Positions 9,873-64,000 of a DNA stretch of 64,000 nt are shown here, piece by piece. Below the pieces are notes generated by a model. That model did no database searches, was not told the DNA's origin, and saw nothing but the letters and a program-made list of their open reading frames with translations. The DNA is taken from assembly GCA_964387845.1 (NCBI GenBank), contig CAYLXA010000013.1, forward strand, positions 25,521 through 89,520, read 5' to 3'. The translations under genes and the position numbers were made by a program. The first letter of the stretch is position 1. Each line of letters starts with the position of its first letter. The stretch is from an uncultured bacterium (GTDB lineage: Bacteria > Omnitrophota > Omnitrophia > Omnitrophales > Abzuiibacteriaceae).

Positions 9873-10020
9873 GCCATCACTTCAAATTTAACCTCCGGAA
9901 TATTTCCGGACCCTTTGGCGTAGAAAAGATTTTAAACCGTTTTTAAAATAAGGGCAAGGTTTTTATCCGAGTTTAGGAGAAATTTTCTACGAATTTTATT
10001 TTCGACGGGTGAAAAATATT

Positions 10021-26300: not shown

Positions 26301-29300
26301 CAGCAACATTTGCAACGAGCGTGATTCCGGTAGAATCGTTAAATCCGTCATAAATAACGTTATTGTAAATGTAAAGTCGTTCTGTTTTTCCGGGCCCGAT
26401 TTGAATTGCGCCGCCGCGGTGATTTGATTCTGAAGGGAATTGGTTGGTTCCAAAAAACGTGTTATTTCGAATAATCGTATTTTGTGAAATGCCGGGATTT
26501 CCGTCAATTGAACCGATGCCGAATGAAGTGTGAAACCGATTTCGGAATGTATTATTCTCTATTAAAACATTTTCAGAATTCCGGAAACCGACAGTTCCAT
26601 GTCCGCAATCACCGAACCAGCTGTTTTTAATAGTCGTATTTCTTGCATCATCGCCAACAATTCCGTCAACGCCGCCGCCGTTCATCAGAAGCAAGCTCGG
26701 GCTTGCCGTGCAATTTAAATTTAAATTGTCAATCTCTACTCCATCGGTATCGAGAACTTTAATTCCGTTTGCCCAAGGTTCCGCGTAACTTTGCTCCGGC
26801 GGCCAGCGGTGGCCAATGCCGATATCATCATTTCCGGTGAATGAAGTGACTGATATATTTTTGAGCTTGACGCCATTTGACCGTTGAATGCCAAGCACGT
26901 AGGGTGCATACAATCTTCCGCCTGCGGTATCGATATGCCCAATGAAATTTAATGAATCAAAAGTAATGTCGTTTGCCAAATAAGTTGTCAGCATATATAT
27001 GCCGATATTGCTGCCTTGAGCCGTCATACTGCTGCCGTGTAAATTCACGGTTTCATTCGGATAGCCGCGAATCGTAATCGGGTTTGCCTCAGTTCCCGAA
27101 CTTCGGATGACAATAAAATTGTTTGCATCAATGTAGGGGAGGAAGTAATCGCCGCCCCGAATGTAAACCGTATCGCCGATATTTAATTTTTCATAAGGAG
27201 ACGTTTCACGAAGCGCTCTCGGCGTGCACCACGGCGTATTGGGATCGAGTGCTTGAGTTCTTGAGTAACTGTCCGAACAGTCACAATTATTTTGATCAAT
27301 GAAAAGCATATTAGTTCCGTTCGCAAGCTCTTGCGGGTCGGAACTGCCGACCGTGCATCCGCCTTCGGATTGGCTTGTATATTCAAATGCGCCGGGCGCG
27401 CAACTTCCGCTTTCAGGACGCGGATTTCCGTCAAAATCCACCGCAACTTCCGGAAGACAAGGGACCGAGCCGATCGCAGGGCTGTCCTGCTGTAAATGAA
27501 AATCGCCGATACCAGCGTTTACGAAAAGCGGGTTGCCGTCTACGTTGTCTTCGGCGAATGACAGTGCATTAAATTCGTCGATGGTGTAGTGATAACGCTG
27601 CGTGTTCCGATTGTTGGTGCTTTGGACCGGGTCTTCGGCAGGATTGAGTTCTTTGACCCAGTTATTTTCAAACACATTTCCATAGCCATTTTGGCCTTCA
27701 AAATCCCAGCCGCCCAGCCGGATTTCGCCGTGAATTTGTTCTCCTTCGCCCGTATAAGTTTGAATTCCGTAGAAAATATTATTTTTGATTTGATTATTAT
27801 TGGCCCAATTATTTTGGCCGAAAACGCCGTTATTGCCGACGCTCATGTTGGCGTAGCCTGTGTTGTAAACCGTGTTGTGAAAGATTTTATTGTTGTTGGC
27901 TTCAAAGAATCCGGTGCCGGGCCCGTTTTGATCCTGAGAATTGGCAATCGAAATTCCGTTTCCATTTAATGCGCCGTTGTAAATCACATTGTTATAAATC
28001 AGGTTGTCACTGGCCCCCAAAATCTGAATGCTGTTTGCGCGAAGCGTGGTCTCCGAAGGAATTGAATTGTAAGTATGAAACGTGTTATTCCGGATGATGT
28101 TATCGTGAGAACCGACACCAACGGCGATATTGGTATGGAGCGTATTTGAAAAATCATTATTTTGCACCAAAACGTCATGCGTATTAAAACGAAGCACAAG
28201 TAGAATGTGGCCGCAGTCACGGAATGTATTGTTTTCGATTAAGCCGCCCGAGACATAATCCATCATGATGCCATCGCCGGAATAGCGGTTGTCCGGGTTA
28301 ATTTGATCGTTAACTTGCATGCATCGGAAAAAACTATTCTTCACTGTGATGTTGCTTGCATTATCAAATTCGATGCCGTTGCCATAAGGTGCATTAGGAG
28401 CGCGATCGTCGTAGCCGATGTCATCGGTGCCTTTGAAGTCAACAACCGAAATGCTGTCAAATACAATATCGCTGCTTCCGCTGACAACCTCAATGACTCG
28501 CGGGCCATACAATTTTCCGTTTGGGTTACCAACATCCACGTTGCCGACAAAATGAAGATTTTCAAATGTGATGAAATGAACGTCATTCAGAACAAATGTG
28601 CGTTCGAACGCTGTGTGCGCACCGCGGATGACTGCCGTTTCGCCGGGATATGAAGTGAATGTAATTCGGTTGCTATCGCTTGTGCCCGATGAATTGATTC
28701 TGACTGTGGTATCGACGATCGGATATTCACCGCCGCGAATATAAACGGTGTCGCCTGCGTTTAATTTGTGATTGGGCCGGTTTTCATGAAAGCCAAGAGG
28801 CGAACACCAGGGTGTATAAGGATCGCGTGCCGCATACCGGTCTCCAGCGTCGCTGCAGTTGCAATTATTTTTATCCACAAAGAGAACATTGGCGCCGTTG
28901 GCAAGCCCTTGCGGGTCAGAGCTTCCGGCTATGCAGCCTCCGAGCTCTGATGGGTGATTGTTGGGATCGTTGGGATTAAATCCGCCTGCAAATTCTTCAC
29001 CGTCTGAGTAGCCGTCACCGTCTGTGTCCGGATTATTAGGATCCGTGCCGTTTTGAAATTCCTGCAGATTGATAAATTGATCATTGTCCGGGTCATCCGT
29101 GCCGTTTTGATTGAGATTGCCGAAGTGCAGCATTTCCCAAACGTCCGGCAAACCGTCTTGATCTGTATCTGAAGTGTCGTTGTAAACATACTCGAATGGA
29201 CCGATGTCGCAGGCAGCGCCTTGCGGCCGGATATGGTTGTCAAAATCAAAATCTACTTCAGGAACACAGATTCCGGCATCCACTGCCGAGCTTTGCTCGG

Positions 29301-31257
29301 TTGGGTGAAAATCGTGATTCTGCGGATCGACAAATAAAGGCACGGTTCCGAGATTATCTACGATTGTTCCAGTCCCAAAAAGGTTATCCAGATTTTGAAG
29401 TGTGTAATCAAAGTGTATATACGGAGGATTGGAAGTTCCAAAATTTCGCGTAGACATCACAAATCCGCCCGGGTTGTCAGTCACCAGCAAATTATTTTTG
29501 ATTTCATTTCCGTAACCCTGATTGGGTTCGAAGCCATAAATATCAAAGAAAATAGGACGGTTGAGATAATACGCATATGTCTGAGAGTAAGGTCCGTCGG
29601 CAGCTCCGCCGGTTTTAAGCTGGATGATATTGTTTTGCACTTTGTTGTCATGCACATAATTGGTATTTGGCAACAGGACGTCATTTATATCCGGACGATT
29701 ATTAAACTCAATCGCTTTTACCATAGAGTTGTGCGTGGTTGCTGTCGGGTCGTCCATATAAATTAAATTATGATAAACCTGGTTCCGGTCGGAATTCGAA
29801 TCGCCGTTTCCGATAAAAGTAATGCCGTGCAAGGAACGCCGCCTCGGCTCGTCAGCGTCGTAGTAAATGATGTTGTTGTGGATTTGGCTGTCGGAAGCCG
29901 AGAGCATTTCAATGGCATGGCCGCCTTGGTTTCCCGTGGTCGGGTACACATTCCAGTTGTAAATCAAATTATTTTTAATAGTCATTTGACTGCCGCCGAA
30001 TGCAAAGCAGGTATGAAGTTCGTTATTACAGGAATTATTTTCAACCGTTATGTTGTCAGACCATCTAACCGTTAAGCTGATATGTCCGCAATTTCCAAAA
30101 GTACTATTTTTTACGCTGCCACCGGATACGCGATTAAATTGAATCCCGTCGCCCGAGAAGCGAAAATCTTCGGTCGGGCGCTCAGAGTATTCAGAGCAGC
30201 TGACAGATGCATTCTCGATTTTAATATTAGAAACGTCATCAAATTGTATTGCACTCCCCCAAGTTTCATAGTCTTCCCCGGTTTTCCGCCACCTAAAGCC
30301 GTAACCGATGTCATTGAGGCTTTGAAAATTAAGAACGCTTGTATCTAAAATTTGAATATCTTGGGCTGGATTTCCAACAGTCCCGCTAATTCTCAACGGA
30401 TTCGGCATGTAAAGTCTGCCTTCCGGCGTATCTTCATAGGCAATAAAATTAAGCCCCTTTAACGTAATGTAGCTGGCGTTATTCAAGATCAGAATCCACG
30501 AATAATTATAAGAGCCGCCGCGTATGGTAACCGGCTCATAACCACTCGGTTCAGTTTGAGAGGGATATGCTTGGATCGTGATCCGCTGCGCAGGCCCGGC
30601 GCCGGACGTATTAACGCTCGCATTATGTTCCGTATAGTCGCCGCGGCGAATGAAGACTGTATCGCCCGGATTCAATTTATGGTTTGGCCTGTATTCGGTT
30701 AACCCGCGCAAACTACACCACGGTGTTGCGGGATTTAAGGCTTCCGGGCGTTCACGGTTATCGCGGCAATTACAATTGCTCTGATCGACAAACAGAACAT
30801 TCAGCCCATTTGCCAAATTCAAAGGATCTGTATTGTTGTCACACTGACGAAGTGGAATACTGCTTGCGTTGGTCGGGCTACTGCCTAATCTGATCTCGTC
30901 GTCATCATTGACGCCATCTCCGTCTGTGTCATATCCGATGTTTCCGTTGCCCACAGTTGGATTGGTATTAAAAGCAACTTCCCGAAAGTTGGGCACTCCG
31001 TCTCTATCCGGATCGTCGTATTGATCATAACTTGTGATATCGCCAAAGTATTGAATTTCCCAATCATCTGAAAGGCCATCAAAATCAGTGTCAATTTCAC
31101 CGGCGGCAATTTGGGGAAGGGGAATGCCCATGAAGACGAGCGTGAAAATAATGATCAAAGAAACAAAATCAGAAAGAAATTTGGAAACAACTTTCTTGAA
31201 CTGCCGGGATTTTATTTTTTTTTTGTGTGATTTATCTGATTCGGAGCTTCGTCCCAT
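20371..31257 (-). CDS. Giant secreted multidomain surface protein (3628 aa). It has TSP3-like Ca-binding repeats, four pectate-lyase-type beta-helix modules, FN3/PKD-like domains, InlB-B-type repeats, a Myxococcus-type Cys-rich repeat and a Dictyostelium/EGF-like Cys-repeat region.
   Basis: A single uninterrupted ORF with an N-terminal signal/anchor ([18 protein letters not shown]). It has DxDxDGxxDxxE motifs and repeated NxxxN/right-handed beta-helix signatures. The module-start motif LANGxNVLF(V/I)DxxNC(N/D)C...TPWC...GDTVYIRGG occurs three times. A CGDGxxxxxExCDDGNxxSGDGCSxxC unit is present. About 20 CxxGxxxxxCDDGNxCTxDxC-like units lie between ~22435 and ~21130. Confidence 0.85.
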   Translation of the reverse strand: [3628 protein letters not shown]

Positions 31258-48521: not shown

Positions 48522-48546
48522 ATACATTGTATATACATTGTATACA
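48522..48546 (+). promoter_or_regulatory. Tandem TATAC-ATT-GTATA palindromes overlapping the -10/TSS of the TA operon. Candidate antitoxin operator.
   Basis: atacattgtatatacattgtataca lies just upstream of the RBS GGAGGG. A -35 TTGACA sits at 48500..48505. Confidence 0.5.
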
Positions 48547-48558
48547 AGGAGGGATCTT

Positions 48559-48786
48559 ATGGTTAAGCATTTAACCCAGCATGGCAACAGTGCGGCATTA
48601 ATCATTGAGAAGCCGGTACTCGAGCTTCTAAATATCACCTTTGAAACTCCTCTGGAAATTGCTACGGATGGCAAAAATTTGATTATTTCGCCTATTTCGA
48701 AAGCGATACGTGAAAAGCAATTTCAAAAGGCGCTTGCGAGTGTTAATAAACGCCACGCAAAAACTTTAAAGCGTCTCGCTCGTTAA
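48559..48786 (+). CDS. AbrB/SpoVT-type (Phd-like) antitoxin
   Basis: The 75-aa protein reads MVKHLTQHGNSAALIIEKPVLELL, a swapped-hairpin AbrB-like N-terminus. It sits immediately upstream of doc. Confidence 0.65.
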   Translation: MVKHLTQHGNSAALIIEKPVLELLNITFETPLEIATDGKNLIISPISKAIREKQFQKALASVNKRHAKTLKRLAR

Positions 48787-48792
48787 TTTCCG

Positions 48793-49188
48793 GTGAAGGC
48801 GCCCAATTTTCTAACACTTGCCGAAATTCTCGAAATCCATAAAAATCAAATTGAACTTTATGGCGGGGAGACCGGTATGCGTGATTTAGGTCTTCTCGAG
48901 TCAGCTATTAATCAGCCGGAAGCAAGTTTTGGCGGTGAATGGCTGCATAAAACTATTTTTGAAATGGCAGCTGCTTACGCTTTTCATATTGCCAAGAATC
49001 ATCCGTTTGTCGATGGAAATAAACGCGCGGCGCTTGCGAGCGCTCTTGTGTTTCTTGAACTAAACGGAATTTCTGTTCGAGATTCAAAGGGAAAGTTGTA
49101 TGATGTCATGATTAAGCTTACGACTTCTCAAATCTCAAAACAAGAATTTGGAAAAATTTTGAAAAAAATGGAAAAGAAAAGTAAATGA
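48793..49188 (+). CDS. doc: Doc (death-on-curing) toxin of the Fic family
   Basis: It has the Fic/Doc motif [11 protein letters not shown]. The protein is 131 aa, starts at a GTG and begins 6 nt after the antitoxin stop. Confidence 0.8.
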
Positions 49189-53259: not shown

Positions 53260-53739
53260 ATGAAAATGGGCGAAGTAGTTTTATTTACACCGGAAGGTTA
53301 TGAAAAGTTAAAGGCAGAACTCAAATACTTAAAGGAAGTAAAGCGTGTCGAAGTTGCCAATCAGCTTGAGGTAGCGCGGGCGCACGGTGATTTGCGGGAA
53401 AACGCAGATTATGACGCAGCGAAAAATGCCAAATCCCATTTGGAAGGCCAGATAGCCAGGCTTGAAGAGAAGCTGATCAACGCAAAAGTGGTTGATGCCA
53501 AAGACGCACCGACAGACAAAATCTACTTTGGAACTTCCGCGGAACTAATGAATCACAAAACCAAGCAAAAGGTTGTGTTTTCATTTGTTGCGCAAGATGA
53601 AGCGGATATTGCAAAAAATAAAATCTCAATTAGTTCACCTATCGGAAAAGCGCTTTTAGGCCATGCGCCCGGCGAAAAAGTGAATGTCACGGTACCGGCC
53701 GGCGTTATTACATTCGAAATCCTTAAAATTTGGCGGTGA
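53260..53739 (+). CDS. greA: Transcription elongation factor GreA
   Basis: The 159-aa protein has the N-terminal coiled-coil motif AHGDLRENADYDAAK and a C-terminal FKBP-like domain. Confidence 0.85.
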   Translation: MKMGEVVLFTPEGYEKLKAELKYLKEVKRVEVANQLEVARAHGDLRENADYDAAKNAKSHLEGQIARLEEKLINAKVVDAKDAPTDKIYFGTSAELMNHKTKQKVVFSFVAQDEADIAKNKISISSPIGKALLGHAPGEKVNVTVPAGVITFEILKIWR

Positions 53740-53740
53740 A

Positions 53741-54091
53741 ATGAATCACAAATTACCAACCCTTCTCTTTCTTTCCGTCTTTTTATTGTCATTTGCTTCG
53801 CCTTCTTCCGCTATTCCTCCCCAAGTTGAAAAATTAAAACGCGGTGCTTGCAACATGATTTTAGGCGGTGTTGAAGTTCCGAAATATATGATCATCGAAG
53901 CGGCCAACGCCGAAAAGCCCCGATGGGCATCTTTGCGCGGTGTTTTCTATGGTTCGTTTAAAGGTGCAATTAAAGGCACTAAGCGGATTTTATCAGGCGC
54001 TTATGATGTACTTACATTTCCCATCAACTACCCAGATCATTATTCTTCGTTGGTTTCTCCCGATTATTTCACGTTTTCGGATATTGATTAA
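53741..54091 (+). CDS. Small secreted protein with a signal peptide (hypothetical)
   Basis: The 116-aa protein starts at the internal Met MNHKLPTLLFLSVFLLSFASPSSA. It carries two RG-containing Gly-rich motifs (KRGACNMILGG and LRGVFYGSFKG) and starts 2 nt after the greA stop. Confidence 0.5.
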   Translation: MNHKLPTLLFLSVFLLSFASPSSAIPPQVEKLKRGACNMILGGVEVPKYMIIEAANAEKPRWASLRGVFYGSFKGAIKGTKRILSGAYDVLTFPINYPDHYSSLVSPDYFTFSDID

Positions 54092-54172: not shown

Positions 54173-54240
54173 CAAAATTTGAACATTTCTCCCGCCCATG
54201 TTAACTTTTGATTAATAGAAGTCGTACTTAATGAATGATT

Positions 54241-54750
54241 ATGAAAACTCAATGTTCCAAAAAGGGCTTTACGTTGGCCGAAGTTTTGATCACGATCGCG
54301 CTGCTCGGCATTCTTGCTGCAATGGTGTTGCCACGTTTGACGGGGCAAACTGATAAGGCTAGAGCTGCTGAGGCGATTAATATGCTTGGTGCTATCCGAC
54401 AGGCCGAGATTTCTTACCGAAATGGTCCTGCAGGTGAATATCTTGGAATTCTTAACACAACTGACGGCGGCTGGTCTTGTGCGGATCCGGCTCTTTGGGC
54501 ACGTTTGGGCATTGGTGATCCAAATGGAAATCCCAATTCTTTATTTGGGTATTGTATAGACTGGACAGATGATCCTACTAGCGGTCCGGTTATATTTCGA
54601 GCAGTTGCGAGACGACTTAGTGCTGCAAATGCTGACGATGAAGTGATTACTTTAAATCAAGATGGAATTTGGGATGGTAATAGTCCCCATGTTCCTCAAA
54701 ATGAAGGTGGAGCAGATTGCGAGTCTAACTGGTTTCCTTGTTGGCCGTAG
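54241..54750 (+). CDS. Type IV pilin or pseudopilin (prepilin-type N-terminus)
   Basis: It has a class III signal, KKGF-TLAEVLITIALLGILAA, with F+1 and E+5 and a variable C-terminal domain. The start is set at MKTQ. Confidence 0.75.
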   Translation: MKTQCSKKGFTLAEVLITIALLGILAAMVLPRLTGQTDKARAAEAINMLGAIRQAEISYRNGPAGEYLGILNTTDGGWSCADPALWARLGIGDPNGNPNSLFGYCIDWTDDPTSGPVIFRAVARRLSAANADDEVITLNQDGIWDGNSPHVPQNEGGADCESNWFPCWP

Positions 54751-54759
54751 GATTTAAAT

Positions 54760-55230
54760 ATGCAAAATTCAAATAAAGGTTTTACGCTAACCGAACTTTT
54801 GATTACGATTGCTATCATTGGTATTTTGGCGGCAATTACGCTCCCGCGCTACTTTCAAACCGAAGCCGCGCGGGTTTCAGAAGCAACCTCTATGCTATCA
54901 ATGATACGTTTAGCAGAGGAAAGTTTTCAGGATCAAAATGGCTGCTATGCTTTAGTGGGTTCGTCAGGGACTTCATGCCCGACGCTCGGGGCCACTTGGA
55001 ATGCACTTGGAATAGAAATTCCTGCCAATAACTATTTTGATTACGAAATTGAAGCCGCCTCAGACACCACCTTTTGTGCATCTGCTACAAGAAATGGCAC
55101 AGGAAGTCCACCTGAAGAATATGAAGGTACTACAATTTGTATTGATGAAACCGGAGCTTTTTACGGTGACCATCCCAATGGGCCAAGCATTGGTTCGGCA
55201 TCGACAGGTGGTTGTAATACATTTTGCTAA
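54760..55230 (+). CDS. Type IV pilin or pseudopilin (prepilin-type N-terminus)
   Basis: [21 protein letters not shown] with E+5. The mature domain is 156 aa with Cys pairs. Confidence 0.75.
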   Translation: [156 protein letters not shown]

Positions 55231-55422
55231 TCAGGCATTTATTTTCTAGTATTTCCGGTCATTTTTTCTGTATAACTTCCATATAGCGCTTAAATAAGAT
55301 AATTCACACCGATTTCTCCGCATTGTTTTCATCTTCTGCCATGTTAAACTTTGTACAGGTTTGGCGGAAAGTAGAAATATAAGCTGTTTAAGGATTTCAG
55401 TTTTTATCAACTTTTACAAACT

Positions 55423-55944
55423 ATGACGCCAATAAGAAAAAATAAAAATTCAGAAAAAGGATTTACGCTGCTTGAAGTGATGGTTTCAGCGCTGGTTGTG
55501 TTAACTGCCGCCGCGATCAGCATGCAGCTTTTGCTTGCACCCAAAGAAAAAGTTGTAGAGCTTGAAATGCGCGCCGAAGTATCGCGCTATTTAAATACGC
55601 GCATTCAGGAAGTAAAAGACATGTCTTCGTTTCCGACAACAGGAATTGATGAACAGCACTATTGCAATCCAGGAACCGGGACTGGTTCTTGTAATGCCAA
55701 TATCTGTGGGAATATTTGTAATGCATACAGCAGCAAATGTGGCAGCGCATTAACGGATGATGCGCGGTTACGTGATATGATCAGCCGGATTCCGTCAATG
55801 TGTTTTGTCCACGTTGAAATGAACTTTGATTGCGGAGAACCAGTAGACAGTAGCGAAGCGACCCAGGTTTGTATCAAAGCAGAGTGGCCGAAGAAAGGAA
55901 GCGAGTATTATGAAGAAGCGCTCACTGCTTTTTTGGTTAAATAA
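55423..55944 (+). CDS. Minor pilin (PilV/FimT-like; prepilin N-terminal methylation domain)
   Basis: EKGF-TLLEVMVSALVVL with E+5. The 173-aa protein has a Cys-rich C-terminus. Confidence 0.65.
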   Translation: MTPIRKNKNSEKGFTLLEVMVSALVVLTAAAISMQLLLAPKEKVVELEMRAEVSRYLNTRIQEVKDMSSFPTTGIDEQHYCNPGTGTGSCNANICGNICNAYSSKCGSALTDDARLRDMISRIPSMCFVHVEMNFDCGEPVDSSEATQVCIKAEWPKKGSEYYEEALTAFLVK

Positions 55945-56572
55945 GTTGTTTTCGAGATCTGAAAGAGGCTTGAGTTTAATCGAGCTCATGGTCGCGATCA
56001 GCATTGTGCCGACCGTGATTTTCGCGTCATCTAATTTTCAGCTCTACTCCAGCAAAATCATGAACAATACCTACGACCGTGGTATGCGCTTGTCCGAACA
56101 AATTGTTATATTTCAATACCTAGAACGGACGATGATCAATGGCTCTTCTGCTATTACTCCAGTCGATTATCAAGGGTATCAAGCTTATACCGCGTGCCCA
56201 AATTCTAGTGATTTTAGTTGGAATAATAGATTGGTTATCAATTTGCCTACTAGTAGCGGTGCTGGCCAACCACCGGTTATTTATGATTTTCTGAAAAATT
56301 GTGGGGACACCGCTGCTCTTCTGCAAGTTACCTATGACATGAACGGAGATAGCCTGATTACGGCAAGCGAATTTACCAAAATTTCGTATTTTGGATCTGT
56401 TGATTATCCGGATGAAACTCCAGGTTTTACGGGAAGCAACAACGTGCCGTTTGTTTATGATACAGACAATAAAAAAGTTACAGTGAGACTTGGATTTAAG
56501 TCAACCGATCCAAATAGCCCGAAAATTACGGTTCCTTTGGAAATTAAATTGAGCGGAGGAAGCGGAACATGA
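55910..56572 (+). CDS. Minor pilin (PilW-like; prepilin N-terminal methylation domain)
   Basis: ERGL-SLIELMVAISIV with E+5. The 220-aa protein overlaps its neighbours in the way minor-pilin operons do. Confidence 0.6.
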   Translation: MKKRSLLFWLNKLFSRSERGLSLIELMVAISIVPTVIFASSNFQLYSSKIMNNTYDRGMRLSEQIVIFQYLERTMINGSSAITPVDYQGYQAYTACPNSSDFSWNNRLVINLPTSSGAGQPPVIYDFLKNCGDTAALLQVTYDMNGDSLITASEFTKISYFGSVDYPDETPGFTGSNNVPFVYDTDNKKVTVRLGFKSTDPNSPKITVPLEIKLSGGSGT

Positions 56573-59500
56573 AATTAATTCATCGCCGAGAATCCGGTTA
56601 TGCGCTTGCGGTGGTGATGTTTGTCCTCGCATTGTGGATTCCGGCTAGCTTAATTCAGGGTTATTTGAAGAATGCCCACATGATCAAGAACCTGTCAAAA
56701 CAGATTTCGGATACCAATCTTAAGTGGGCCACAGAATCAATTGCTAATCGCGCAATGTTTAATTTAAAAAATGCCATTCAGAACAACGGCCTTGATGATT
56801 GCATGTTTTGTCCGCCGACGGACGCAAATCCTCTTTGCGGTAGTTCAACACCTTCCGGCGGAGGAGGATGCCATGTGGCCGGTGTCGAGACTAATTCATT
56901 GGAATGGTTTAACGATATTGATGATACGGTGCCCGGCGTTGGTTTTCAGCAGTCGTTTTTAAATTTTCTTACACCAAACTCAGCATATCTTGCTTCCACA
57001 GTGCAAAGTACCGAAGTTTTGGAATTAAGTGTGAGAGCACTTGAAAATCCTTCACCGGCATCCGGTGTTGCAGTTTTTGATATTGGTGCGAAAGTAAAAC
57101 TTTCGGACCAGGTTGGAAATTTAACGTCCGGTATCAATCAACAATTTAGAATCCGATCGTCTAATATAGCAAGCTTTTCAATTTTCCTTGCTTGCGGCCA
57201 AGATTTTGTGGTGTCTCCGGGCACCAATACGCGTTTGGAAGGACCTATTTACGTTTGTGAAAATGCATTTTTAACACCCAACAAGAACACGGCACTGACC
57301 ATTGCATGTCCGGATTGCGATCGAAATAATCCCGATCCAAACATGTATGCATTGAAAACCAGCGGATCTATTATGTGGGGCGGGCCGGTAAAGATTGGCC
57401 AAACGCCGCCTACCCAAAATAATGCTACAAAACCTTATGAAACAGACGTGTACGGAAAACCCGTTCGTTATCAATTTTTGAGTAATATTGATTCGGGGTG
57501 GACGGGATTTGATACGACTCCGGGAATTGATGGGGCAGAAGCATTGAAGACAAGTATCATTGAAGTGCAAGATGTCCACGGAACCCAAGCAAGTCCTCAA
57601 TTTACGAGATTGATCGGCATGAATACAGCCACAGATCCCATTAGAGCTCCTCCGATTAAATTTGAATTTCTACGCGGCCCTGATCAGCACGTGCCGCCAA
57701 CCACCGCCCATACACCATTGGCTAATTTAAATACGGCGCCTTCCAATACAAACGTTCCAGCTAATAATGTTGTTGTTAATACTTCGCTTGCTTATGACTC
57801 GTTGAATCCAGAGCTTGTAGCGCCATTTATGAGCTCTGAAAATCAAATCTGGCGAAACTTTTTGGATAGTCATTTCCGGACCAGTGTAACGGATATTTAT
57901 TTTTTAGAAGACAAAGCCGCTCTCAGGACTTTGCAAATCGGTTCCGCAAATCCGCGAGATTTAATTGAGTTTGCATCTGATTCTGACAACAGTATTCTTA
58001 AAAATGTAAAGTTTCAATGGGTTGCATTCAACGCGCATAGATATGATCCGAATTTACCGGATCCGCATATTGCCAATTCATCCAGTGATTTTGCGGGTAT
58101 CTCGCTTGATTTTAGAAAGTACGGCTGTACCGGGTCTGTATGCACCGATACAACTACTATTAAAGGAGAAAACCCAACCAATTGGGGGGGCGCGAACGGA
58201 TTTTTGAATTTCCCATCAGTTACTTATCAAGACTGGCGGCGCGGACAATTTCCCATTAAAATTGTCGAATTGGATGTTGGAGCGCTAAAAGATTTGATCG
58301 TTCTGCCGGATGCGGATCCTCCTTCACCAAACGCTACGTATCCATTTCCCCGAAAACCTTTTGTTTTGTATATTGGTTTTGATACCAATTTATCCGCCCC
58401 ATATCATATTTTAAATTCGGTGTTGCGGATCAAGAATGCAGCTGAGTTGCCAGTGAACGGTTTAACCATCGCAACAAATGGATTTGTCCAAATTCAGGGT
58501 GATTACAATATAACAGGCACACCGCCCAGCCATGGCCCCGGCTCAGGGGATGTGTGCGGCATGATTCCGGCTGCGGTTGTGGCAGATCAAATCATGGTTC
58601 TTTCGAATAGCTGGCAGGATTGGACCAATTCAGGGCCGAATGCTCCGGCTTCGTTCGAAGATCCCTTTGTTGGCCCTGGTACAACTTTTCCGGCAGTTGA
58701 CAGTAATCCTAACCTGACGGGTATTCAGCCTTATCCAAAGCATAATTTCAGGTCGCATGTGATTTATCCAAACAAAAATGTGACAGTCAATGCTGTCTTG
58801 GTAGCCGGCGGTCTTAATGAGAAGTTGGAGCCTATGGATGTAGCAAGTTCTTTAGCGCGTTCTTTTGATGTAAATCCATTAACAGGATATTCATATGGAC
58901 AGCTTATGTTAAATAATCTCGTATTTCCATGGACTCGGTTTCCATATTTGAGAAATCGGCGCTTATCACAGGATAATACAGGCGTTTGTCCATTTTCTCC
59001 GGGCATTTTTCCGGAAGTTGGAACGCCGCCAACGGCTGCTACTAACCCCGAGTGTTTTGATGTTTCCGGTATCACGAGAATTAAAAGCAATAATTGGAGA
59101 AACACAAGAGTCCAAATCATTGATTATGAACCGCCTGCCGGAAGTTGTAATGGAAATTCACCTTGTATTATTGATTTGGGCCCTATCGGCGATGTTGCTA
59201 CTGCCATTACTATCGGAAGCCAAACTTACAAAGGCTTTTTATATGGCTGTACTTCTTGTAATGGTATGCCAGGCTATACTAGCGCAGCTGATCTTAACGA
59301 TAATATACCGCTTTATATTAAAGTAGATGAAAATGGACGCCATGTGGCGCCTTGTAATCCGGATGGTTTTACGCCTGCCGGAACAGTTGCCTGCGATGAT
59401 CCTTCTGTTGCTGGGTTTTTAAACACGTCTGTGGTTAGTTTGGAAACTGCACATCTTATAACAAAAGTAGAAAATGTTAGCGGAAGCTGGGTCGTGACTT

Positions 59501-60375
59501 CTCCCGATATAGTTCCGGTACCAAATTCACCAGTGAGTCCCAGTGAATACGACTATACGCAGGTGAAGCCAGGCGCCCGGTTTGCAGCTTTTGCACGGCA
59601 CACTTATGATCCTGCGTATCCAAATAATGCGCGCCGCTTGATCATGCCCGATAGTATCACTTTAGGTTGTTGCACAACAAGCGGAGGGTCAACCAGCTGC
59701 CCTTACGTATGTGACGGAAACCCTCCCGGATGCAGCGTAGGTAATATTGGTTCAAACTGTAGTTATTCAACTTATTGTCCGAGTTGTGCCGCAAATATCT
59801 GTGGTGGTGAGGGATGTACGCAATCACCACAAGTGAATCCAAGCTCACTGACCTGCACTGGCATGGGATGGCAATGTCCAACAGCTACAAACGGTTTAGG
59901 CACCTGTTCTACTAGCTGTGCAGTTTCCGGACAAAGTGTTCCAAACCCATACCCCGTGATTCGATATTCAAAAGGAGGTAATACCAGACAAATGGCAGCT
60001 GATCCCTTCAGTGTAACGGCAATGAAATTTGTCTATCTCCCTTATTATGTGCAAAGATACAGCGGCGGGTTTGAAAATATGATCCGTTTTGGGGAAGATT
60101 GGGTTTCTTGGAATTGTTCCGGAAATCCTGCGTCTTGTACGCCATTAACAACCTCAAGGTCGGTAGAATTAAACGGTTCAGTTCATAAGCTTTGGGAATC
60201 TGTAACGCTCAAGAAAGCGGATAACACTTCATTTGCATATTGGGCTCCTGATACATACACGGCACCGAACAGAATTTTCCAATATTCGAGTGAGCTGAAA
60301 CATGAAGAATGCGTGCCACCGGCTATGCCGCGCGCAACGCCTGAAAGCGAAGATTTGAATGTGAGGAGATTTTAA
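56569..60375 (+). CDS. Large pilus-associated protein with a PilX-like N-terminal anchor (1268 aa). Possibly a tip adhesin.
   Basis: The N-terminus is RRESGYALAVVMFVLALWI, a PilX-N-like hydrophobic segment without E+5. It is followed by a long extracellular region that is Cys-rich toward the C-terminus. It sits at the pilX/pilY1 position of a fimU-pilVWXY1E-like operon. Confidence 0.55.
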   Translation: MKLIHRRESGYALAVVMFVLALWIPASLIQGYLKNAHMIKNLSKQISDTNLKWATESIANRAMFNLKNAIQNNGLDDCMFCPPTDANPLCGSSTPSGGGGCHVAGVETNSLEWFNDIDDTVPGVGFQQSFLNFLTPNSAYLASTVQSTEVLELSVRALENPSPASGVAVFDIGAKVKLSDQVGNLTSGINQQFRIRSSNIASFSIFLACGQDFVVSPGTNTRLEGPIYVCENAFLTPNKNTALTIACPDCDRNNPDPNMYALKTSGSIMWGGPVKIGQTPPTQNNATKPYETDVYGKPVRYQFLSNIDSGWTGFDTTPGIDGAEALKTSIIEVQDVHGTQASPQFTRLIGMNTATDPIRAPPIKFEFLRGPDQHVPPTTAHTPLANLNTAPSNTNVPANNVVVNTSLAYDSLNPELVAPFMSSENQIWRNFLDSHFRTSVTDIYFLEDKAALRTLQIGSANPRDLIEFASDSDNSILKNVKFQWVAFNAHRYDPNLPDPHIANSSSDFAGISLDFRKYGCTGSVCTDTTTIKGENPTNWGGANGFLNFPSVTYQDWRRGQFPIKIVELDVGALKDLIVLPDADPPSPNATYPFPRKPFVLYIGFDTNLSAPYHILNSVLRIKNAAELPVNGLTIATNGFVQIQGDYNITGTPPSHGPGSGDVCGMIPAAVVADQIMVLSNSWQDWTNSGPNAPASFEDPFVGPGTTFPAVDSNPNLTGIQPYPKHNFRSHVIYPNKNVTVNAVLVAGGLNEKLEPMDVASSLARSFDVNPLTGYSYGQLMLNNLVFPWTRFPYLRNRRLSQDNTGVCPFSPGIFPEVGTPPTAATNPECFDVSGITRIKSNNWRNTRVQIIDYEPPAGSCNGNSPCIIDLGPIGDVATAITIGSQTYKGFLYGCTSCNGMPGYTSAADLNDNIPLYIKVDENGRHVAPCNPDGFTPAGTVACDDPSVAGFLNTSVVSLETAHLITKVENVSGSWVVTSPDIVPVPNSPVSPSEYDYTQVKPGARFAAFARHTYDPAYPNNARRLIMPDSITLGCCTTSGGSTSCPYVCDGNPPGCSVGNIGSNCSYSTYCPSCAANICGGEGCTQSPQVNPSSLTCTGMGWQCPTATNGLGTCSTSCAVSGQSVPNPYPVIRYSKGGNTRQMAADPFSVTAMKFVYLPYYVQRYSGGFENMIRFGEDWVSWNCSGNPASCTPLTTSRSVELNGSVHKLWESVTLKKADNTSFAYWAPDTYTAPNRIFQYSSELKHEECVPPAMPRATPESEDLNVRRF

Positions 60376-63056
60376 TGAAGTGGCTCCAGCGGTTTAAACT
60401 GATAAAAGGAATCACGTTATTCGAATTGATCGTTGTTATTGCGATCATTGGAATATTGGCAGCCGTCGGTGTTCCAAGTTTTGAAAGCATGATCAAAAAG
60501 CGTGAGCTCAAGAATGCAAGCGAAAATCTTTTCTCCATTCTAAACGGAATTCGTTCATGGGAACTCCAGCATCCTCAATCTTTATTCCCCGGAGAAGTGT
60601 ACGATGCTGATTTTTGGGTAAATAATTGGAAGTCTAATTTAACGTCCCAATATCTCAGCAAAATGAACGACAAAACACCCGATAACCCTCTTTTACTTAC
60701 ATTGGAAAGTGGGGTTCGGAAAATAGAGTACTATTTAGCGCCTCATGCGGCTGATTTTCTCCACATTTATGGTACATATTCGGTAAATAATAATCCGCAG
60801 GGTTTTGTTTATCTAACTTATGACGGAATTTTGAGTACCGAATCAGTCGTGCCAGGCACATGTCCTAACGGAGTGTTGGGCCCTGGAGAGCAATGCGAAA
60901 ATGATTTTCATTGCGCTGGTGTAGCGACCTGTAACACAGCGACATGCACTTGTTCGGGCGGGGGCGGTTCATGCGGAGATGGGACTGTCAATAACGGTGA
61001 ACAATGCGATGATAACAACACTATATCCGGCGATGGCTGCAGCTCAACGTGTCGAGATGAAGTCTGCGGTGACGGCATTAAACAGGATGACGAGGGTTGC
61101 GATGGCAACCCAAATCAGTGTCCTCCGATTGCGGGTAATAATGTAGTTTGTACAACTGCCTGCGAATGTTCTTATAGTCCGATTGGAAATGCTTTGTGCG
61201 GTGACGGAACTGTTACTGCTCCGGAATTGTGTGACCGTGGAAATTTGCCGATTATTCCAGCTATTGGATGTCCTGTTGGATCGGTTTGTGCTGGCGATTG
61301 CAAGTCTTGTTGTGGTGACGGTATTTTAACGCCATCTAGTTCAGAAGTTTGCGATATCGGTGTCGGGTGCGGAGCAATCACGGGTTCTGTTTGTAATTCA
61401 ACTTGTTCTGCCTGCGAATGTCCGTCGGGAGAAAGTGAGAATCCGCCGGGTTCAGGCCATTGTTGTCCGACGGGAACCTCATGGAACGGATCAAGCTGCA
61501 GCGCTTGCGGGAATAACGCGCTGGATGTTGGCGAGATTTGCGACGAGTCGGCTTTTCCCAACGGCTGTCCGTTTGATCAGGAGTGTAACGCTGCTTGTAA
61601 TGCATGTTCCTGTCCGGCCGGAACTGCTTTGAGCAATTATCATTGCTGCCCGGTCGGTTCAGTGTGGAACGGCCATGACTGTACGACTTGCGGTGACGGC
61701 GTAAAATCCGGCTGGGAACAGTGCGATCCAACCGATCCTGATGCAGCAGATCAAACGTGTACGCCTTACACGCCGTCCGGCCTACCGGGTTGCGGCATGA
61801 TGGGAAAATCCGAACGTTACTCTTTGCAAAGCGGTTCAGTTGAAGAAATTTTATCCGAACAAATGTCTTATTATAACCTTTCTAAATCAGGCCCGGCACC
61901 GATGGCAGACCCTTGTCCGCCTGGTTCGCCTCAACCGAGATATTGTCAGGAGTGCTTATGTGTTCCCGGATCAGGCGGAATTTGCGGCAATAATCTTCTG
62001 GAAACAGGCGAGCAATGCGACGACGGCAATACAACTTCAGGTGATGGCTGCAGTGCAAGCTGTCAGCAGGAATATTGTGGTGACTCAGTCATTCAACCTG
62101 GTTTAAATGAGCAGTGCGACAATAGCGCTTGTGCCCCCAATCCGAACCCTCCTCCGCTTGGGACACCTCTATTTTGTATGAACTGTCAATGCCAGTGTGT
62201 GCCATTTTTGTGTAGTCAGGGCAGTGTTCCTAATATGGAAACTTGTTCGTGCGATCCGATGCCTTGTGATAGTACATCCGATTGCGATGATCAAAATGAA
62301 TGTACGGATGATAGCTGTGATTTAACCGCGGGGCATTGCGTATTTGATGGCACCGGCATGAACGGTCTGGCTTGCGATGATGGAGATATCTGCACAACAG
62401 GTGAACAATGCGACGCCGGAATTTGTATCGGCGGAACAGCCACATCGTGCGATGACGGAAATCCGTGCACAACCGACGTATGTGATTATGATACCGGCTG
62501 TATAAATCAAAATTTACCGAATGGAACTTCCTGCGCTGACGCAGATTTGTGTGATGGCGATGAAGTTTGTGATAACTTTGGCGTTTGTCAACCCGGAGTG
62601 TCGGTGGTCTGCACAGCGCTGGATCAATGTCATGACGTTGGCGTTTGCGATCCGGGAACCGGTGTCTGCTCGAATCCTATCAAAGCCGACGGCACAAGTT
62701 GTGTTCATCCGAATTCAAGCCAAACGTGGGATCATGACGGTAATCCCGGCACTCCTGAAATCCCGGTGTATGATAACGAATGTTATCTCCAGGAATGTAT
62801 CGCTGGCGCATGTCAATTTACAACCGGTTTATATGATTCAAATGAATGTGATTATGATGGACTACCGCAAAGCGGCTGTAACTATGAAACATGCAGCGCT
62901 GGATGGTGTATTCCGGATACTCCCGGCTGTCCCGGCGGCAGTTGCGTAGATTGTCCCAACCAAATCGGATCGCCAATTGCAGCATGCGGCGGCTCTCTTT
63001 GCGCTCAGTCTTCTGCCGATCCGCTTGACCCCAGTTTGGGGTATTGCTGCGCATAA
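60375..63056 (+). CDS. Giant type IV pilin (893 aa). A prepilin N-terminus is fused to a ~740-aa Cys-rich repeat domain made of Myxococcus-type and Dictyostelium/EGF-like repeats.
   Basis: [20 protein letters not shown] with E+5. Myxococcus-type units: [27 protein letters not shown] at ~60969..61075 and [27 protein letters not shown] at ~61982..62088. A Dictyostelium/EGF-like unit [13 protein letters not shown] is also present. This gene is last in the operon. Confidence 0.7.
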   Translation: [893 protein letters not shown]

Positions 63057-63102
63057 TACGGCTAATCGCCGATTTACACCTAAAAATAATCTAAAAATAA
63101 TG

Positions 63103-63131
63103 TTGACATAGATTTTATCTAATCATATAAT
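63103..63131 (+). promoter_or_regulatory. Perfect consensus sigma70 promoter, TTGACA-17-TATAAT
   Basis: ttgaca at 63103..63108, a 17-nt spacer, then tataat at 63126..63131. It lies 335 nt upstream of the 16S 5' end. Confidence 0.6.
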
Positions 63132-63277
63132 CTCTCACTTTTGGGAGAGGCTCTGAGTAGTAATTCCTACCATAGTTGTAAGTCCCATACGGTCATTAAT
63201 AAATTAAATTTTGTGATTGCAGAAGACGATAAATTGGTTCGTCGTCTTTATTGAAAACTTTTGTCTTAAAAATAAAG

Positions 63278-63330
63278 GACGCCCTTACTTAGAAAAGGGC
63301 GTCCTTTATTTTCTGTTTTTTTGCTCTTTC
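63278..63330 (+). promoter_or_regulatory. boxB-like hairpin followed by a boxA-like TGCTCTTTC in the rRNA leader. Alternatively it is an intrinsic terminator.
   Basis: aaaggacgccctt acttagaa aagggcgtccttt is a perfect 13-bp stem. It is followed by attttctgtttttt, then tgctctttctta, which resembles the boxA consensus GCTCTTTAACAA. Confidence 0.45.

Positions 63331-63437: not shown

Positions 63438-64000
<563 letters not shown>

What the first reader, a model, noticed from the sequence alone, without database searches (positions are those of the whole stretch)
56569..60375. 1268-aa protein with a PilX-like anchor occupying the combined pilX/pilY1 slot
Canonical PilX is ~200 aa and PilY1 ~1000 aa, and they are encoded separately. 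Here a single ORF starts with a PilX-N-type hydrophobic segment (no E+5) and continues for more than 1200 residues with a Cys-rich C-terminal region.

The ORF could be a fused priming subunit and tip adhesin.
Basis: inference. Interest (0 to 1): 0.55.

Follow-up and report, generated by a model that had tools for sequence, protein, structure and literature searches.

The report
Giant solenoid-bearing pilus-tip minor pilin
The 1268-residue gene is real and intact, and it is not a PilX–PilY1 fusion but an oversized, unannotated version of the pilus-capping minor pilin (GspK/PilX/ComZ type) with a large beta-solenoid and a cysteine-rich insert, probably the pilus tip plug and adhesin of an Omnitrophota bacterium.

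Summary
The ORF at 56569-60375 (+) is intact and encodes 1268 aa. It starts with a prepilin-like N-terminus (RRESG|YALAV...) that lacks Glu5, and 17 of its 36 Cys lie in residues 1034-1117. It is the fifth gene of a translationally coupled six-gene pilin cassette: two pilins, an I/PilV-like gene, a J/PilW-like gene, this gene, and an 893-aa Cys-rich modular pilin.

No Pfam, NCBIfam or PDB sequence model hits it. An exhaustive HMMER search finds about 25 colinear full-length relatives of 1000-1330 aa. All are "hypothetical proteins"; those that carry a source name are from Candidatus Omnitrophota. In the distant clade they sit after I- and J-like pilins inside complete type IV pilus clusters that lack pilY1.

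Profile comparison shows the protein equals a widespread ~650-aa solenoid K-pilin scaffold of Verrucomicrobiota (HpsA-related) plus a ~410-aa insert.

Verdict: this is a cap-type priming minor pilin whose inserted solenoid and insert probably replace PilY1 in cis. The "fusion" idea holds in function but not in origin. It is a new variant of a known kind, of moderate interest.

The parts
54235..54750 (+). Pilin 1 (171 aa), G|FTLAE N-terminus; candidate major or abundant pilin
   Evidence: It matches N_methyl and TIGR02532. It is 34-39% identical to pilins that lie next to the platform gene in the pilus clusters of distant homologues.
54760..55230 (+). Pilin 2 (156 aa), G|FTLTE; paralogue of pilin 1
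   Evidence: It matches N_methyl and gives a sub-threshold ComP_DUS match. It is 39% identical to pilin 1 and is conserved in L001, L004 and L009.
55423..55944 (+). Minor pilin (173 aa), G|FTLLE; GspI/PilV-position subunit
   Evidence: It matches N_methyl. A gene of 139-182 aa with a prepilin N-terminus lies two positions upstream of the giant gene in every locus examined.
55910..56572 (+). Minor pilin (220 aa), G|LSLIE; GspJ/PilW-position subunit. Its stop overlaps the start of the giant gene (ATGA).
   Evidence: It matches N_methyl at threshold. A G|(L/M)TL.EL gene of 196-267 aa lies immediately upstream of the giant gene in all loci.
56569..60375 (+). The finding: a 1268-aa K-type (GspK/PilX/ComZ-like) cap minor pilin with a beta-solenoid and a Cys-rich insert
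56569..56784 (+). Residues 1-72: prepilin-like leader (cleavage inferred after Gly10), hydrophobic alpha1 helix, no Glu5
   Evidence: Hydropathy is. The family alignment shows Gly-(F/Y/L) followed by a hydrophobic run and never Glu5 in 27 members. Seven of 27 relatives hit NF037980 T2SS_GspK over profile positions 1-65.
57010..57168 (+). Residues 148-200: three long antiparallel strands, interpreted as the pilin-domain beta-sheet
   Evidence: AF2 DSSP shows strands at model residues 80-91, 99-110 and 117-128, which are protein residues 148-196. The interpretation follows ComZ/GspK topology (PMC6561018).
57169..58827 (+). Residues 201-753: beta-solenoid scaffold with family-wide motifs (FSIF..DFVVSPG..GPIY at 203-228, GLTIATNG..QGDYN at 631-647, PAAVVADQI..LSNSWQD at 667-684, VNAVL at 740)
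58828..60057 (+). Residues 754-1163: ~410-aa insert that the short relatives lack. It includes the Cys-rich block 1034-1117 (nt 59668-59919). It is poorly modelled and its first part is the most divergent.
   Evidence: Motif spacing is about 410 aa here versus about 10-20 aa in P0046-type proteins. pLDDT is mostly below 50. Per-region identity is 22-26% versus 32-41% for the scaffold across P0003-P0008.
60058..60372 (+). Residues 1164-1268: conserved C-terminal module (YSGGFEN..GEDW, ..LW.., Y.AP.R.F.Y, PP..P, terminal strand). It is inferred to return to and complete the pilin sheet in cis.
   Evidence: It holds the invariant columns G1166, G1167, E1169, W1178, G1203, W1209, P1233, R1235 and P1250. 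hhalign against the C-termini of short relatives gives probability 99.3%, E 4.8e-20, down to the last residue. pLDDT is 74-94. The cis-strand idea comes from PMC13533445.
60375..63056 (+). Modular pilin (893 aa): G|ITLFE pilin N-terminus with Glu5 followed by ~800 aa of Cys-rich repeats. It takes the position of a 171-185-aa pilin in distant loci (GspH/FimU-like slot).
   Evidence: It matches myxo_disulf_rpt at 1.5e-20, plus DUF4215, Dicty_CTDC and an N_methyl-type N-terminus. Orthologues of 894, 813 and 324 aa follow the giant gene in L002, L004 and L009, and 171-185-aa pilins follow it in L003 and L007.

Best explanation
The gene encodes the cap subunit (GspK/PilX/PilK/ComZ class) of the minor-pilin priming complex of a type IV filament, in a bacterium that is most likely a member of Candidatus Omnitrophota.

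Shown:
- It has a prepilin-like N-terminal helix without Glu5.
- It follows I-like and J-like minor pilin genes in a translationally coupled cassette.
- Its relatives keep this position, often inside complete pilus machine clusters that have no pilY1.
- Its predicted fold is closest to ComZ, a GspK-like pilin domain carrying an ice-binding-protein-like beta-solenoid.
- It equals a widespread ~650-aa solenoid K-pilin scaffold plus a ~410-aa insert that includes the Cys-rich part.

Inferred:
- The protein inserts in the inner membrane by its alpha1 helix and is probably trimmed after Gly10 by the prepilin peptidase.
- It assembles with the 173-aa and 220-aa minor pilins into the tip trimer that starts polymerisation. 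Because it lacks Glu5, it can only be the top subunit.
- The conserved extreme C-terminus folds back to supply the last strand of its own pilin sheet. This is the role PilY1/PilC plays in trans in classical type IVa pili, and the role GspK and CpaL play in cis.
- The solenoid and the fast-evolving Cys-rich insert project from the tip. They act as plug and adhesin, possibly together with the 893-aa Cys-rich pilin encoded next.
For: ORF and N-terminus:
-.
- Glu5 is present in all five neighbouring pilins and absent in all 27 family members.

Family:
- There are 76 HMMER hits, 8 of them at E<=1e-30, and the full-length members are colinear.
- Named members are all from Omnitrophota and all "hypothetical".

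Context:
- The same six-gene cassette occurs in L001/L002, L004 and L009.
- In L003, L006 and L007/L008 the gene sits with PilM, PilO, a secretin, an MshEN-T2SSE ATPase, T2SSF and pilins, and no PilY1 domain is listed.

Sub-threshold but consistent matches:
- GspK N-terminal hits in 7 of 27 relatives.
- HpsA motif hits in 19 of 27 relatives.

Structure:
- The model has pTM 0.70.

Scaffold homology to ~650-aa K-position proteins of Verrucomicrobiota:
- hhalign probability 100%, E 3e-50 for the N-terminus through the solenoid.
- hhalign probability 99.3%, E 4.8e-20 for the C-terminus to the last residue.
- These proteins also follow I- and J-like pilins.

Literature:
- ComZ architecture and the argument for a tip location (PMC6561018).
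- Cis versus trans C-terminal strand addition (PMC13533445).
- The cyanobacterial PilX solenoid proposed as a PilY1 substitute, with HpsA as an expanded form (bioRxiv 10.64898/2026.02.12.705559).

Fast evolution:
- Housekeeping proteins are 83-96% identical to those of L004, but the giant protein only about 35% and its partners 26-28%.
Against: - No curated GspK, PilX_N or HpsA model hits the window protein itself.
- The tools return no model coordinates. The contact between the C-terminal strands and the N-terminal sheet, and the exact insertion point of the solenoid, are therefore inferred and not seen.
- The alpha1 helix was left out of the model because of the 1200-residue limit.
- About a third of the model (383 of 1200 residues), including the whole Cys-rich region, has pLDDT below 50.
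- Foldseek against the PDB gave nothing significant.
- No pilus machine genes lie in the 64-kb window, so the link to a machine rests on relatives.
- Adhesion, processing by the prepilin peptidase and the tip location are all untested.
- The +1 residue is Tyr, which is less common than Phe or Met.
Confidence: 0.78

Rival explanations
1. It is a literal gene fusion of a PilX-type minor pilin with a PilY1/PilC-type tip adhesin. The large C-terminal part would then be a diverged PilY1 (vWA domain and/or beta-propeller).
For: - The size (1268 aa) is about PilX plus PilY1.
- The gene sits where pilX-pilY1 would lie.
- No separate pilY1 is seen in the cassette or in related clusters.
Against: - Pfam finds no Neisseria_PilC/PilY1 or vWA match, even at E<=10 on the whole protein and on four pieces.
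- The conserved C-terminal 105 residues are homologous to the C-terminus of ~650-aa K-pilins that have no adhesin part. The protein is therefore one scaffold with an insert, not two genes joined end to end.
Confidence: 0.04
2. It is the cap pseudopilin of a secretion-type filament, either type II secretion or a cyanobacterial Hps-like polysaccharide export system. In that case it works as a periplasmic piston tip, not as the tip of an exposed adhesive pilus.
For: - The sub-threshold N-terminal matches are to T2SS GspK.
- There is remote homology to HpsA, which is needed for hormogonium polysaccharide secretion (bioRxiv 10.64898/2026.02.12.705559).
- The ATPases in related clusters carry an MshEN domain, and no second PilT-like ATPase is seen in the stretches fetched.
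- An exosortase-associated TIGR04073 gene lies directly upstream and is syntenic.
Against: - Related clusters use PilM_2 and PilO components, not GspL/GspM, and carry several pilin genes.
- A ~135-kDa cap with a long solenoid plus an 893-aa Cys-rich pilin is hard to fit in a periplasmic pseudopilus.
- No glycosyltransferase or polysaccharide export genes flank the cassette.
- Omnitrophota are reported to express type IVa pili (PMC10066038).
Confidence: 0.14
3. It is a membrane-anchored (signal-anchor) surface or periplasmic solenoid protein, such as an adhesin or a polysaccharide-active enzyme. It would be merely co-transcribed with the pilin genes and not incorporated into the filament.
For: - No curated pilin model hits the protein.
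Against: - The position after I- and J-like genes is strictly conserved across Omnitrophota and Verrucomicrobiota.
- The leader has the same (E/R)-x-G|aromatic form as its pilin neighbours.
- The best structural match is a bona fide tip pilin, not an enzyme.
- The extreme C-terminal strand is conserved, as in GspK and CpaL (PMC13533445).
Confidence: 0.04

Closest known systems
ComZ of Thermus thermophilus (PDB 6QVI), the competence-pilus tip pilin
   Same: - It is a GspK-like pilin domain carrying a large ice-binding-protein-like beta-solenoid.
- Its N-terminal hydrophobic helix lacks Glu5.
- It is encoded among minor pilin genes and is argued to sit at the tip (PMC6561018).
   Different: - The crystallised ComZ chain is 518 residues, against 1268 for this protein.
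- There is no detectable sequence similarity.
- This protein has a longer solenoid region, a ~410-aa insert that includes the Cys-rich block, and a different conserved C-terminal module.
- ComZ binds DNA; nothing here points to DNA binding.
Cyanobacterial PilX solenoid minor pilins and HpsA (PilX_EPS; NCBIfam NF038301)
   Same: - The described architecture is the same: a pilin fold interrupted by a triangular solenoid placed before the last strand.
- HpsA is an expanded form, and the solenoid is proposed to replace the PilY1 plug (bioRxiv 10.64898/2026.02.12.705559).
- 19 of 27 family members hit the HpsA model over the FxVF..DLEI.PGP..GP motif.
- The ~650-aa relatives hit it at 1e-12 to 1e-21.
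   Different: - The window protein itself does not hit NF038301, whose cutoff is 400 bits.
- It is not in an hps-type glycosyltransferase locus.
- The phylum is different.
- The Cys-rich insert is not described for HpsA.
GspK (type II secretion) and PilX/PilK (type IVa pili) cap minor pilins
   Same: - The prepilin-like N-terminus has no Glu5.
- The gene order is I-J-K.
- A role as top subunit of the priming trimer is inferred.
- As in GspK, the C-terminal strand is likely supplied in cis (PMC13533445).
   Different: - GspK is about 330 aa with an alpha-helical insert, and PilX is about 200 aa and needs PilY1 in trans.
- The curated models (NF037980, PF14341) do not hit the window protein.
PilY1/PilC tip adhesins
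   Same: - It is a large tip-associated protein that may plug the tip and bind surfaces.
- It is encoded at the end of the minor pilin operon.
   Different: - It has no beta-propeller and no vWA domain.
- It has a pilin-type N-terminus, which PilY1/PilC proteins are not known to have (own knowledge, not tested here).
- It is a pilin itself, not an accessory protein docked by a C-terminal strand.
CpaL/TadG of Tad pili and the modular pilins of Streptococcus sanguinis (PilB, PilC)
   Same: A pilin module is combined with bulky functional domains in one polypeptide. In CpaL, a pilin-like N-terminal domain is completed by the protein's own extreme C-terminus, with a dispensable middle part (PMC13533445; PMC8179133).
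   Different: The folds of the added modules, the filament classes and the sizes all differ. No sequence relationship was detected.

Membership tests
PilY1/PilC tip adhesins | C-terminal PilY1/PilC beta-propeller domain (Pfam Neisseria_PilC, PF05567) | tested here: not met
   [not shown]
PilY1/PilC tip adhesins | N-terminal vWA-like domain (present in many PilY1 proteins) | tested here: not met
   [not shown]
GspK/PilX/PilK cap minor pilins | Prepilin-type N-terminus with a hydrophobic alpha1 helix and no Glu at +5 | tested here: met
   The sequence reads RRESG|YALAVVMFVLALW, with Val at +5. Glu5 is absent in all 27 aligned members and present in the five neighbouring pilins.
GspK/PilX/PilK cap minor pilins | Encoded directly after I-type and J-type minor pilin genes | tested here: met
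   The 173-aa and 220-aa prepilin genes precede it with overlapping stop and start. The same order holds in L001, L003, L004, L006, L007, L009 and L012.
GspK/PilX/PilK cap minor pilins | Match to curated models (NF037980 T2SS_GspK at >=130 bits; Pfam PilX_N) | tested here: not met
   The window protein has no hit. Seven of 27 relatives hit NF037980 at 13-21 bits, over profile positions 1-65 only.
GspK/PilX/PilK cap minor pilins | Cleavage by the prepilin peptidase and incorporation at the filament tip | not testable with these tools
   This needs N-terminal proteomics and immuno-EM or cryo-ET.
ComZ-type solenoid tip pilins | Pilin-like domain combined with an ice-binding-protein-like triangular beta-solenoid | tested here: met
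   [not shown]
ComZ-type solenoid tip pilins | Solenoid inserted between the penultimate and the last strand of the pilin sheet, so that the C-terminus returns to the pilin domain | tested here: inconclusive
   The order of elements fits: helix, three strands, solenoid, conserved C-terminal strands. No coordinates or contacts are returned by the tools, and alpha1 was not modelled.
HpsA / PilX_EPS (NCBIfam NF038301) | Score at or above the curated cutoff (400 bits) of the equivalog model | tested here: not met
   The window protein has no hit. Relatives score 16-26 bits on a ~40-residue motif. Homology is transitive only, through the ~650-aa proteins.
HpsA / PilX_EPS (NCBIfam NF038301) | Location in an hps-type locus with glycosyltransferases | tested here: not met
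   The flanking genes are GreA, QueF, an ABC-F protein, a TIGR04073 protein and the 16S rRNA gene. No glycosyltransferase adjoins the cassette.
Verru_Chthon cassette protein A (TIGR02600) | Match to the NCBIfam model | tested here: not met
   NCBIfam scans report no such hit for the window protein, the 27 family members or the ~650-aa relatives. Only pilin 2 and the 893-aa pilin give weak hits, to cassette protein D.

The most novel reading that the evidence does not exclude
In Omnitrophota the pilus tip is a two-part giant adhesin. One part is the 1268-aa cap pilin, whose ~410-aa insert (partly Cys-rich) evolves much faster than the genome. The other part is the adjacent 893-aa Cys-rich modular pilin. 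Together they would set which host cell or surface these ultra-small, host-dependent bacteria attach to. The cassette would then be the host-range determinant of the phylum and a PilY1-independent solution to tip plugging and adhesion.
Probability: 0.3. Interest if true: 0.65.

Novelty: new variant of a known kind. Interest (0 to 1): 0.45.

Why it matters
Tip proteins decide what a type IV pilus binds and whether it assembles at all. Outside Proteobacteria the PilY1 role is mostly unassigned.

This locus gives a name and a testable role to an unannotated protein family of Omnitrophota. It also links a much larger unannotated ~650-aa family in Verrucomicrobiota to the same role: at least 633 protein clusters, none of the 120 listed carrying a functional name.

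It extends the ComZ/HpsA principle, in which a solenoid built into the cap pilin replaces PilY1, to the PVC group.

Omnitrophota are thought to live attached to other cells and to rely on type IVa pili (PMC10066038). The fast-evolving insert and the Cys-rich partner pilin are therefore candidate host-recognition determinants.

The concept itself is already in the literature, so this broadens a known principle and does not overturn it.

Tried and rejected
- Word-indexed homologue search. It returned only the query itself, both for the single protein and for a 27-sequence alignment. Relatives came only from the exhaustive HMMER search.
- Exact-sequence contig look-up of the protein found nothing on record.
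- The first genome-contig scan, with the single protein, found nothing. A 27-sequence alignment was too divergent for pattern design. The 7-sequence alignment found one Omnitrophica MAG and two motif-only hits.
- Single-sequence AlphaFold of residues 1-1200 gave pLDDT 29 and was unusable.
- Foldseek against the PDB gave no significant match; its best hits were NTF2-like sheets at E about 0.3. The afdb50 library was not available.
- PDB sequence searches with the protein and with the family profile gave nothing.
- Pfam gave nothing on the protein, on its pieces, on the family or on the short relatives.
- Rejected: PilY1 fusion, because there is no propeller and no vWA domain.
- Rejected: Verru_Chthon cassette protein A, because the model does not hit.
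- Rejected: assembly artefact or frameshift, because the homologues are colinear.
- MshQ was considered only from the literature (PMC13533445). It is a separate large protein encoded downstream of a PilK homologue, MshP, so it is not itself the K-type pilin.

Full report
**Observation**

The ORF at 56569-60375 (+) is real and uninterrupted, and it encodes 1268 aa.
- A GGAGG lies about 10 nt upstream of the ATG.
- The start overlaps the stop of the upstream gene (ATGA), and the TAA stop overlaps the ATG of the downstream gene (TAATG). This indicates translational coupling.
- The only strongly hydrophobic segment is residues 8-33.
- The N-terminus, MKLIHRRESG|YALAVVMFVLALW, has Gly at -1 and Val at +5.
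- The four upstream genes and the downstream gene all start with a classical prepilin motif that includes Glu5: G|FTLAE, G|FTLTE, G|FTLLE, G|LSLIE and G|ITLFE.
- The protein has 36 Cys, 17 of them within residues 1034-1117.

**Surroundings**

The gene is fifth in a six-gene, same-strand cassette at 54235-63056:
- two ~160-aa pilins;
- a 173-aa minor pilin;
- a 220-aa minor pilin;
- the 1268-aa protein;
- an 893-aa pilin, whose pilin N-terminus is followed by ~800 aa of Cys-rich repeats (myxo_disulf_rpt 1.5e-20, DUF4215, Dicty_CTDC).

No pilus machine genes lie in the window. The neighbours are housekeeping genes: nuo, trehalose synthesis, sulfite reductase, thiC, nadA, ispG, mqn-like radical SAM genes, an ABC-F protein, queF and greA. 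A TIGR04073 exosortase-associated gene also lies nearby, and a 16S rRNA gene starts at 63438.

**Is there a family?**

Curated libraries see nothing:
- Pfam and NCBIfam give no hit, even at E<=10 on pieces of the protein.
- PDB sequence searches with the protein and with a family profile find nothing.
- The word-indexed protein search returned only the query itself.

An exhaustive HMMER search of 1.84 billion cluster representatives, using residues 69-1268, found 76 proteins at E<=1e-3. Eight of them score at E<=1e-30.
- About 25 are full-length relatives of 1000-1330 aa that align from Met1 to the C-terminus.
- A close clade is 29-45% identical (P0002-P0008), and a distant clade about 22%.
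- Every named member is a "hypothetical protein" from a Candidatus Omnitrophota MAG.
- This colinearity across independent assemblies rules out a frameshift or a mis-joined pair of genes.

Conserved features across the family:
- the Gly-(F/Y/L) hydrophobic N-terminus, never with Glu5;
- FxVF..D(L/F)..PG....GP(I/V) at residues 203-228;
- GLTxATNG...QGDYN at 631-647;
- PPAAIxxDxxxxLSxxWxD at 667-685;
- VNAxL at 740;
- YSGGxENxxxxxExW at 1164-1178;
- Y..AP.R.F.Y at about 1230-1239;
- a PP..P-hydrophobic-strand ending.

**Genomic context of relatives**

The close clade repeats the window's cassette:
- P0002 on L001/L002.
- P0003 on a 525-kb contig, L004, with the same flanking ispG, mqn, queF, greA and TIGR04073 genes and a 16S gene after the cassette.
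- An Omnitrophica CG11 MAG, L009, where the cassette lies between nuo genes and a CitMHS transporter. Both of those are also present in the window.

The window therefore most likely comes from an Omnitrophota genome. Its Nuo proteins are 58-77% identical to those of the CG11 MAG.

In the distant clade the giant gene lies inside complete type IV pilus clusters (P0009 on L003, P0016 on L006, P0018 on L007/L008).
- These clusters encode PilM_2, PilO, a secretin, an MshEN-T2SSE ATPase, a T2SSF platform and several pilins.
- After those come a ~140-175-aa prepilin, a ~218-267-aa prepilin, the giant gene and, in L003 and L007/L008, a ~170-185-aa pilin.
- No PilY1/PilC domain is listed in any of these clusters.

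This is the I-J-K(-H) order of core minor pilins, with the giant protein in the K position.

**Weak but consistent sequence links**

Scanning all 27 family members against NCBIfam gave two recurrent sub-threshold matches:
- Seven members match T2SS_GspK over profile positions 1-65, the N-terminal helix.
- Nineteen members match the cyanobacterial HpsA model over the ~40-residue FxVF..DLEI.PGP motif.

The weaker HMMER hits of 500-750 aa carry all the same motifs in the same order.
- Those with a source name are from Verrucomicrobiota, and named relatives of P0046 are Chthoniobacterales.
- They match HpsA at 1e-12 to 1e-21 and have no Pfam domain.
- One of them, P0046, again follows two prepilin genes with overlapping reading frames.
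- P0046 has at least 633 relatives.

Profile-profile comparison of the giant family with this short family gave:
- probability 100%, E 3e-50, from the N-terminal helix through the solenoid;
- for the C-terminal modules, probability 99.3%, E 4.8e-20, down to the last residue.

The spacing between VNAxL and YSGGxEN is about 10-20 residues in the short proteins and about 410 residues here. The 1268-aa protein is therefore the short scaffold plus an insert at residues 754-1163, which contains the Cys-rich block.

**Structure**

A single-sequence AlphaFold model was useless, with pLDDT 29. With a 31-sequence alignment, residues 69-1268 gave pTM 0.70 and mean pLDDT 65.5.
- The region with three long antiparallel strands (residues 148-196) is modelled with mixed confidence.
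- The following solenoid-like region of many short strands is confident.
- The C-terminal module is confident.
- Residues 1013-1127 and parts of 754-1012 are low-confidence.

- no PilY1 propeller and no vWA fold among the 60 matches listed.

Foldseek found nothing significant.

This pattern is what the ComZ paper itself reports (PMC6561018). ComZ is a GspK-like pilin domain with an ice-binding-protein-like solenoid inserted between the penultimate and last strands of the pilin sheet. Because it is too bulky for the fibre body, it is argued to sit at the tip.

A 2026 preprint describes the same architecture for all cyanobacterial PilX proteins. It treats HpsA as an expanded form and proposes that the solenoid replaces the PilY1 plug (bioRxiv 10.64898/2026.02.12.705559).

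**Mechanism**

Established knowledge: Glu5 is needed to dock each pilin onto the subunit above it, so the Glu5-less GspK/PilX subunit caps the filament.

Ellison et al. 2026 (PMC13533445) show that the last strand of the K-pilin sheet can come from two sources. PilY1/PilC supplies it in trans, while GspK and CpaL supply it themselves in cis. This strand licenses assembly of the I-J-K complex.

From this I infer the following steps:
1. The protein is anchored by alpha1 and probably cleaved after Gly10.
2. It joins the 173-aa and 220-aa minor pilins as the top of the priming trimer.
3. It closes its own pilin sheet with its conserved extreme C-terminus.
4. It displays the solenoid and the insert at the tip as plug and adhesin.

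Steps 1-4 are inferred and not shown. The tools return no coordinates, so I could not check the contact between the C-terminal strands and the N-terminal sheet.

**Evolutionary rate**

Between the window and L004:
- Housekeeping proteins are 83-96% identical, for example IspG 96%, GreA 94% and QueF 91%.
- The first 563 nt of the 16S gene are 93.7% identical.
- The giant protein is only about 35% identical.
- The I-like pilin is 28%, the J-like pilin 26% and the Cys-rich pilin 28% identical.

Within the giant protein, compared with P0003-P0008, the solenoid and C-terminal module are the best conserved at 32-41%. The pilin sheet, the loops and the first part of the insert are the least conserved at 17-27%. 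Such divergence fits an exposed, recognition-type surface, but it is not proof of one.

**Comparison and novelty**

The protein works like ComZ, cyanobacterial PilX/HpsA, and GspK or CpaL, all of which are cap pilins with built-in bulk and a cis strand.

It fails the formal tests for several families:
- PilY1: no propeller and no vWA domain.
- HpsA equivalog: no hit, against a 400-bit cutoff.
- The curated GspK model.
- Verru_Chthon cassette protein A.

It meets the following features:
- a Glu5-less prepilin N-terminus;
- the K gene position;
- the ComZ-type fold.

What is new:
- the phylum;
- the size;
- the ~410-aa insert, partly Cys-rich;
- the pairing with an 893-aa Cys-rich modular pilin;
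- recognition that a large unannotated PVC protein family belongs to this class.

The principle itself is already published, so I rate this a new variant of a known kind with moderate interest (0.45).

Noticed in passing
window 60375-63056 (+): This 893-aa modular pilin has a normal prepilin N-terminus with Glu5, followed by ~800 aa of Cys-rich repeats (myxo_disulf_rpt, DUF4215, Dicty_CTDC). Its orthologues vary from 324 to 894 aa in the close clade. In distant clusters a 171-185-aa pilin takes its place.
   Followed up: partly
window 20371-31257 (-): This 3628-aa protein has Beta_helix, TSP3, PKD-like and InlB-B-like domains. It also carries the same DUF4215 and Dicty_CTDC Cys-rich repeats as the 893-aa pilin, so it looks like a giant surface protein that shares modules with the pilus cassette.
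   Followed up: no
window 9860-9913 (-): An nhaA-I RNA (Rfam type: riboswitch) scores 44.1 bits against a gathering score of 37. It lies directly upstream of a same-strand gene run encoding trehalose-6-phosphate synthase, trehalose phosphatase, DUF5752, a TreT-like glycosyltransferase, a Na+/H+ exchanger and a CitMHS transporter. This suggests one osmotic-stress operon under this riboswitch.
   Followed up: no
window 63073-63312 and 63438-64000 (+): A perfect sigma-70 consensus (TTGACA, 17 nt, TATAAT) lies at 63103-63131. An 18-bp hairpin with a T-run lies at 63269-63312. Both sit between the end of the pilin cassette and the 16S rRNA gene that starts at 63438. It is unclear whether the hairpin ends the cassette transcript or belongs to the rRNA leader. 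L004 has the same cassette-then-16S arrangement.
   Followed up: no
window 53684-54091 (+): A TIGR04073 exosortase-system-associated protein (135 aa, 50.4 bits against a cutoff of 50) lies directly upstream of the pilin cassette and overlaps the end of greA. It keeps this position in L004 and L001. Any link between it and the pilus cassette is unexplained.
   Followed up: partly
window 48538-49188 (+): An 82-aa ORF is followed by a 131-aa ORF that contains [11 protein letters not shown], a Fic/Doc-type motif read by eye. The pair looks like a Phd/Doc-like toxin-antitoxin pair inserted between mqn-like genes and an SDR gene. It was not scanned against any library.
   Followed up: no
window 56569-60375 versus L004 10001-13834: The whole tip cassette is far more diverged (26-35% identity, with the two pilins at about 50%) than the flanking housekeeping genes (83-96%) between two genomes with 93.7% identical 16S 5' regions. 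Either the cassette evolves very fast or it has been exchanged between lineages.
   Followed up: partly
tool behaviour, versus 25: The word-indexed homologue search missed every relative, including sequences that were part of the query alignment. The exhaustive HMMER search found 76. A negative result from the indexed search should not be read as meaning the protein is an orphan.
   Followed up: yes
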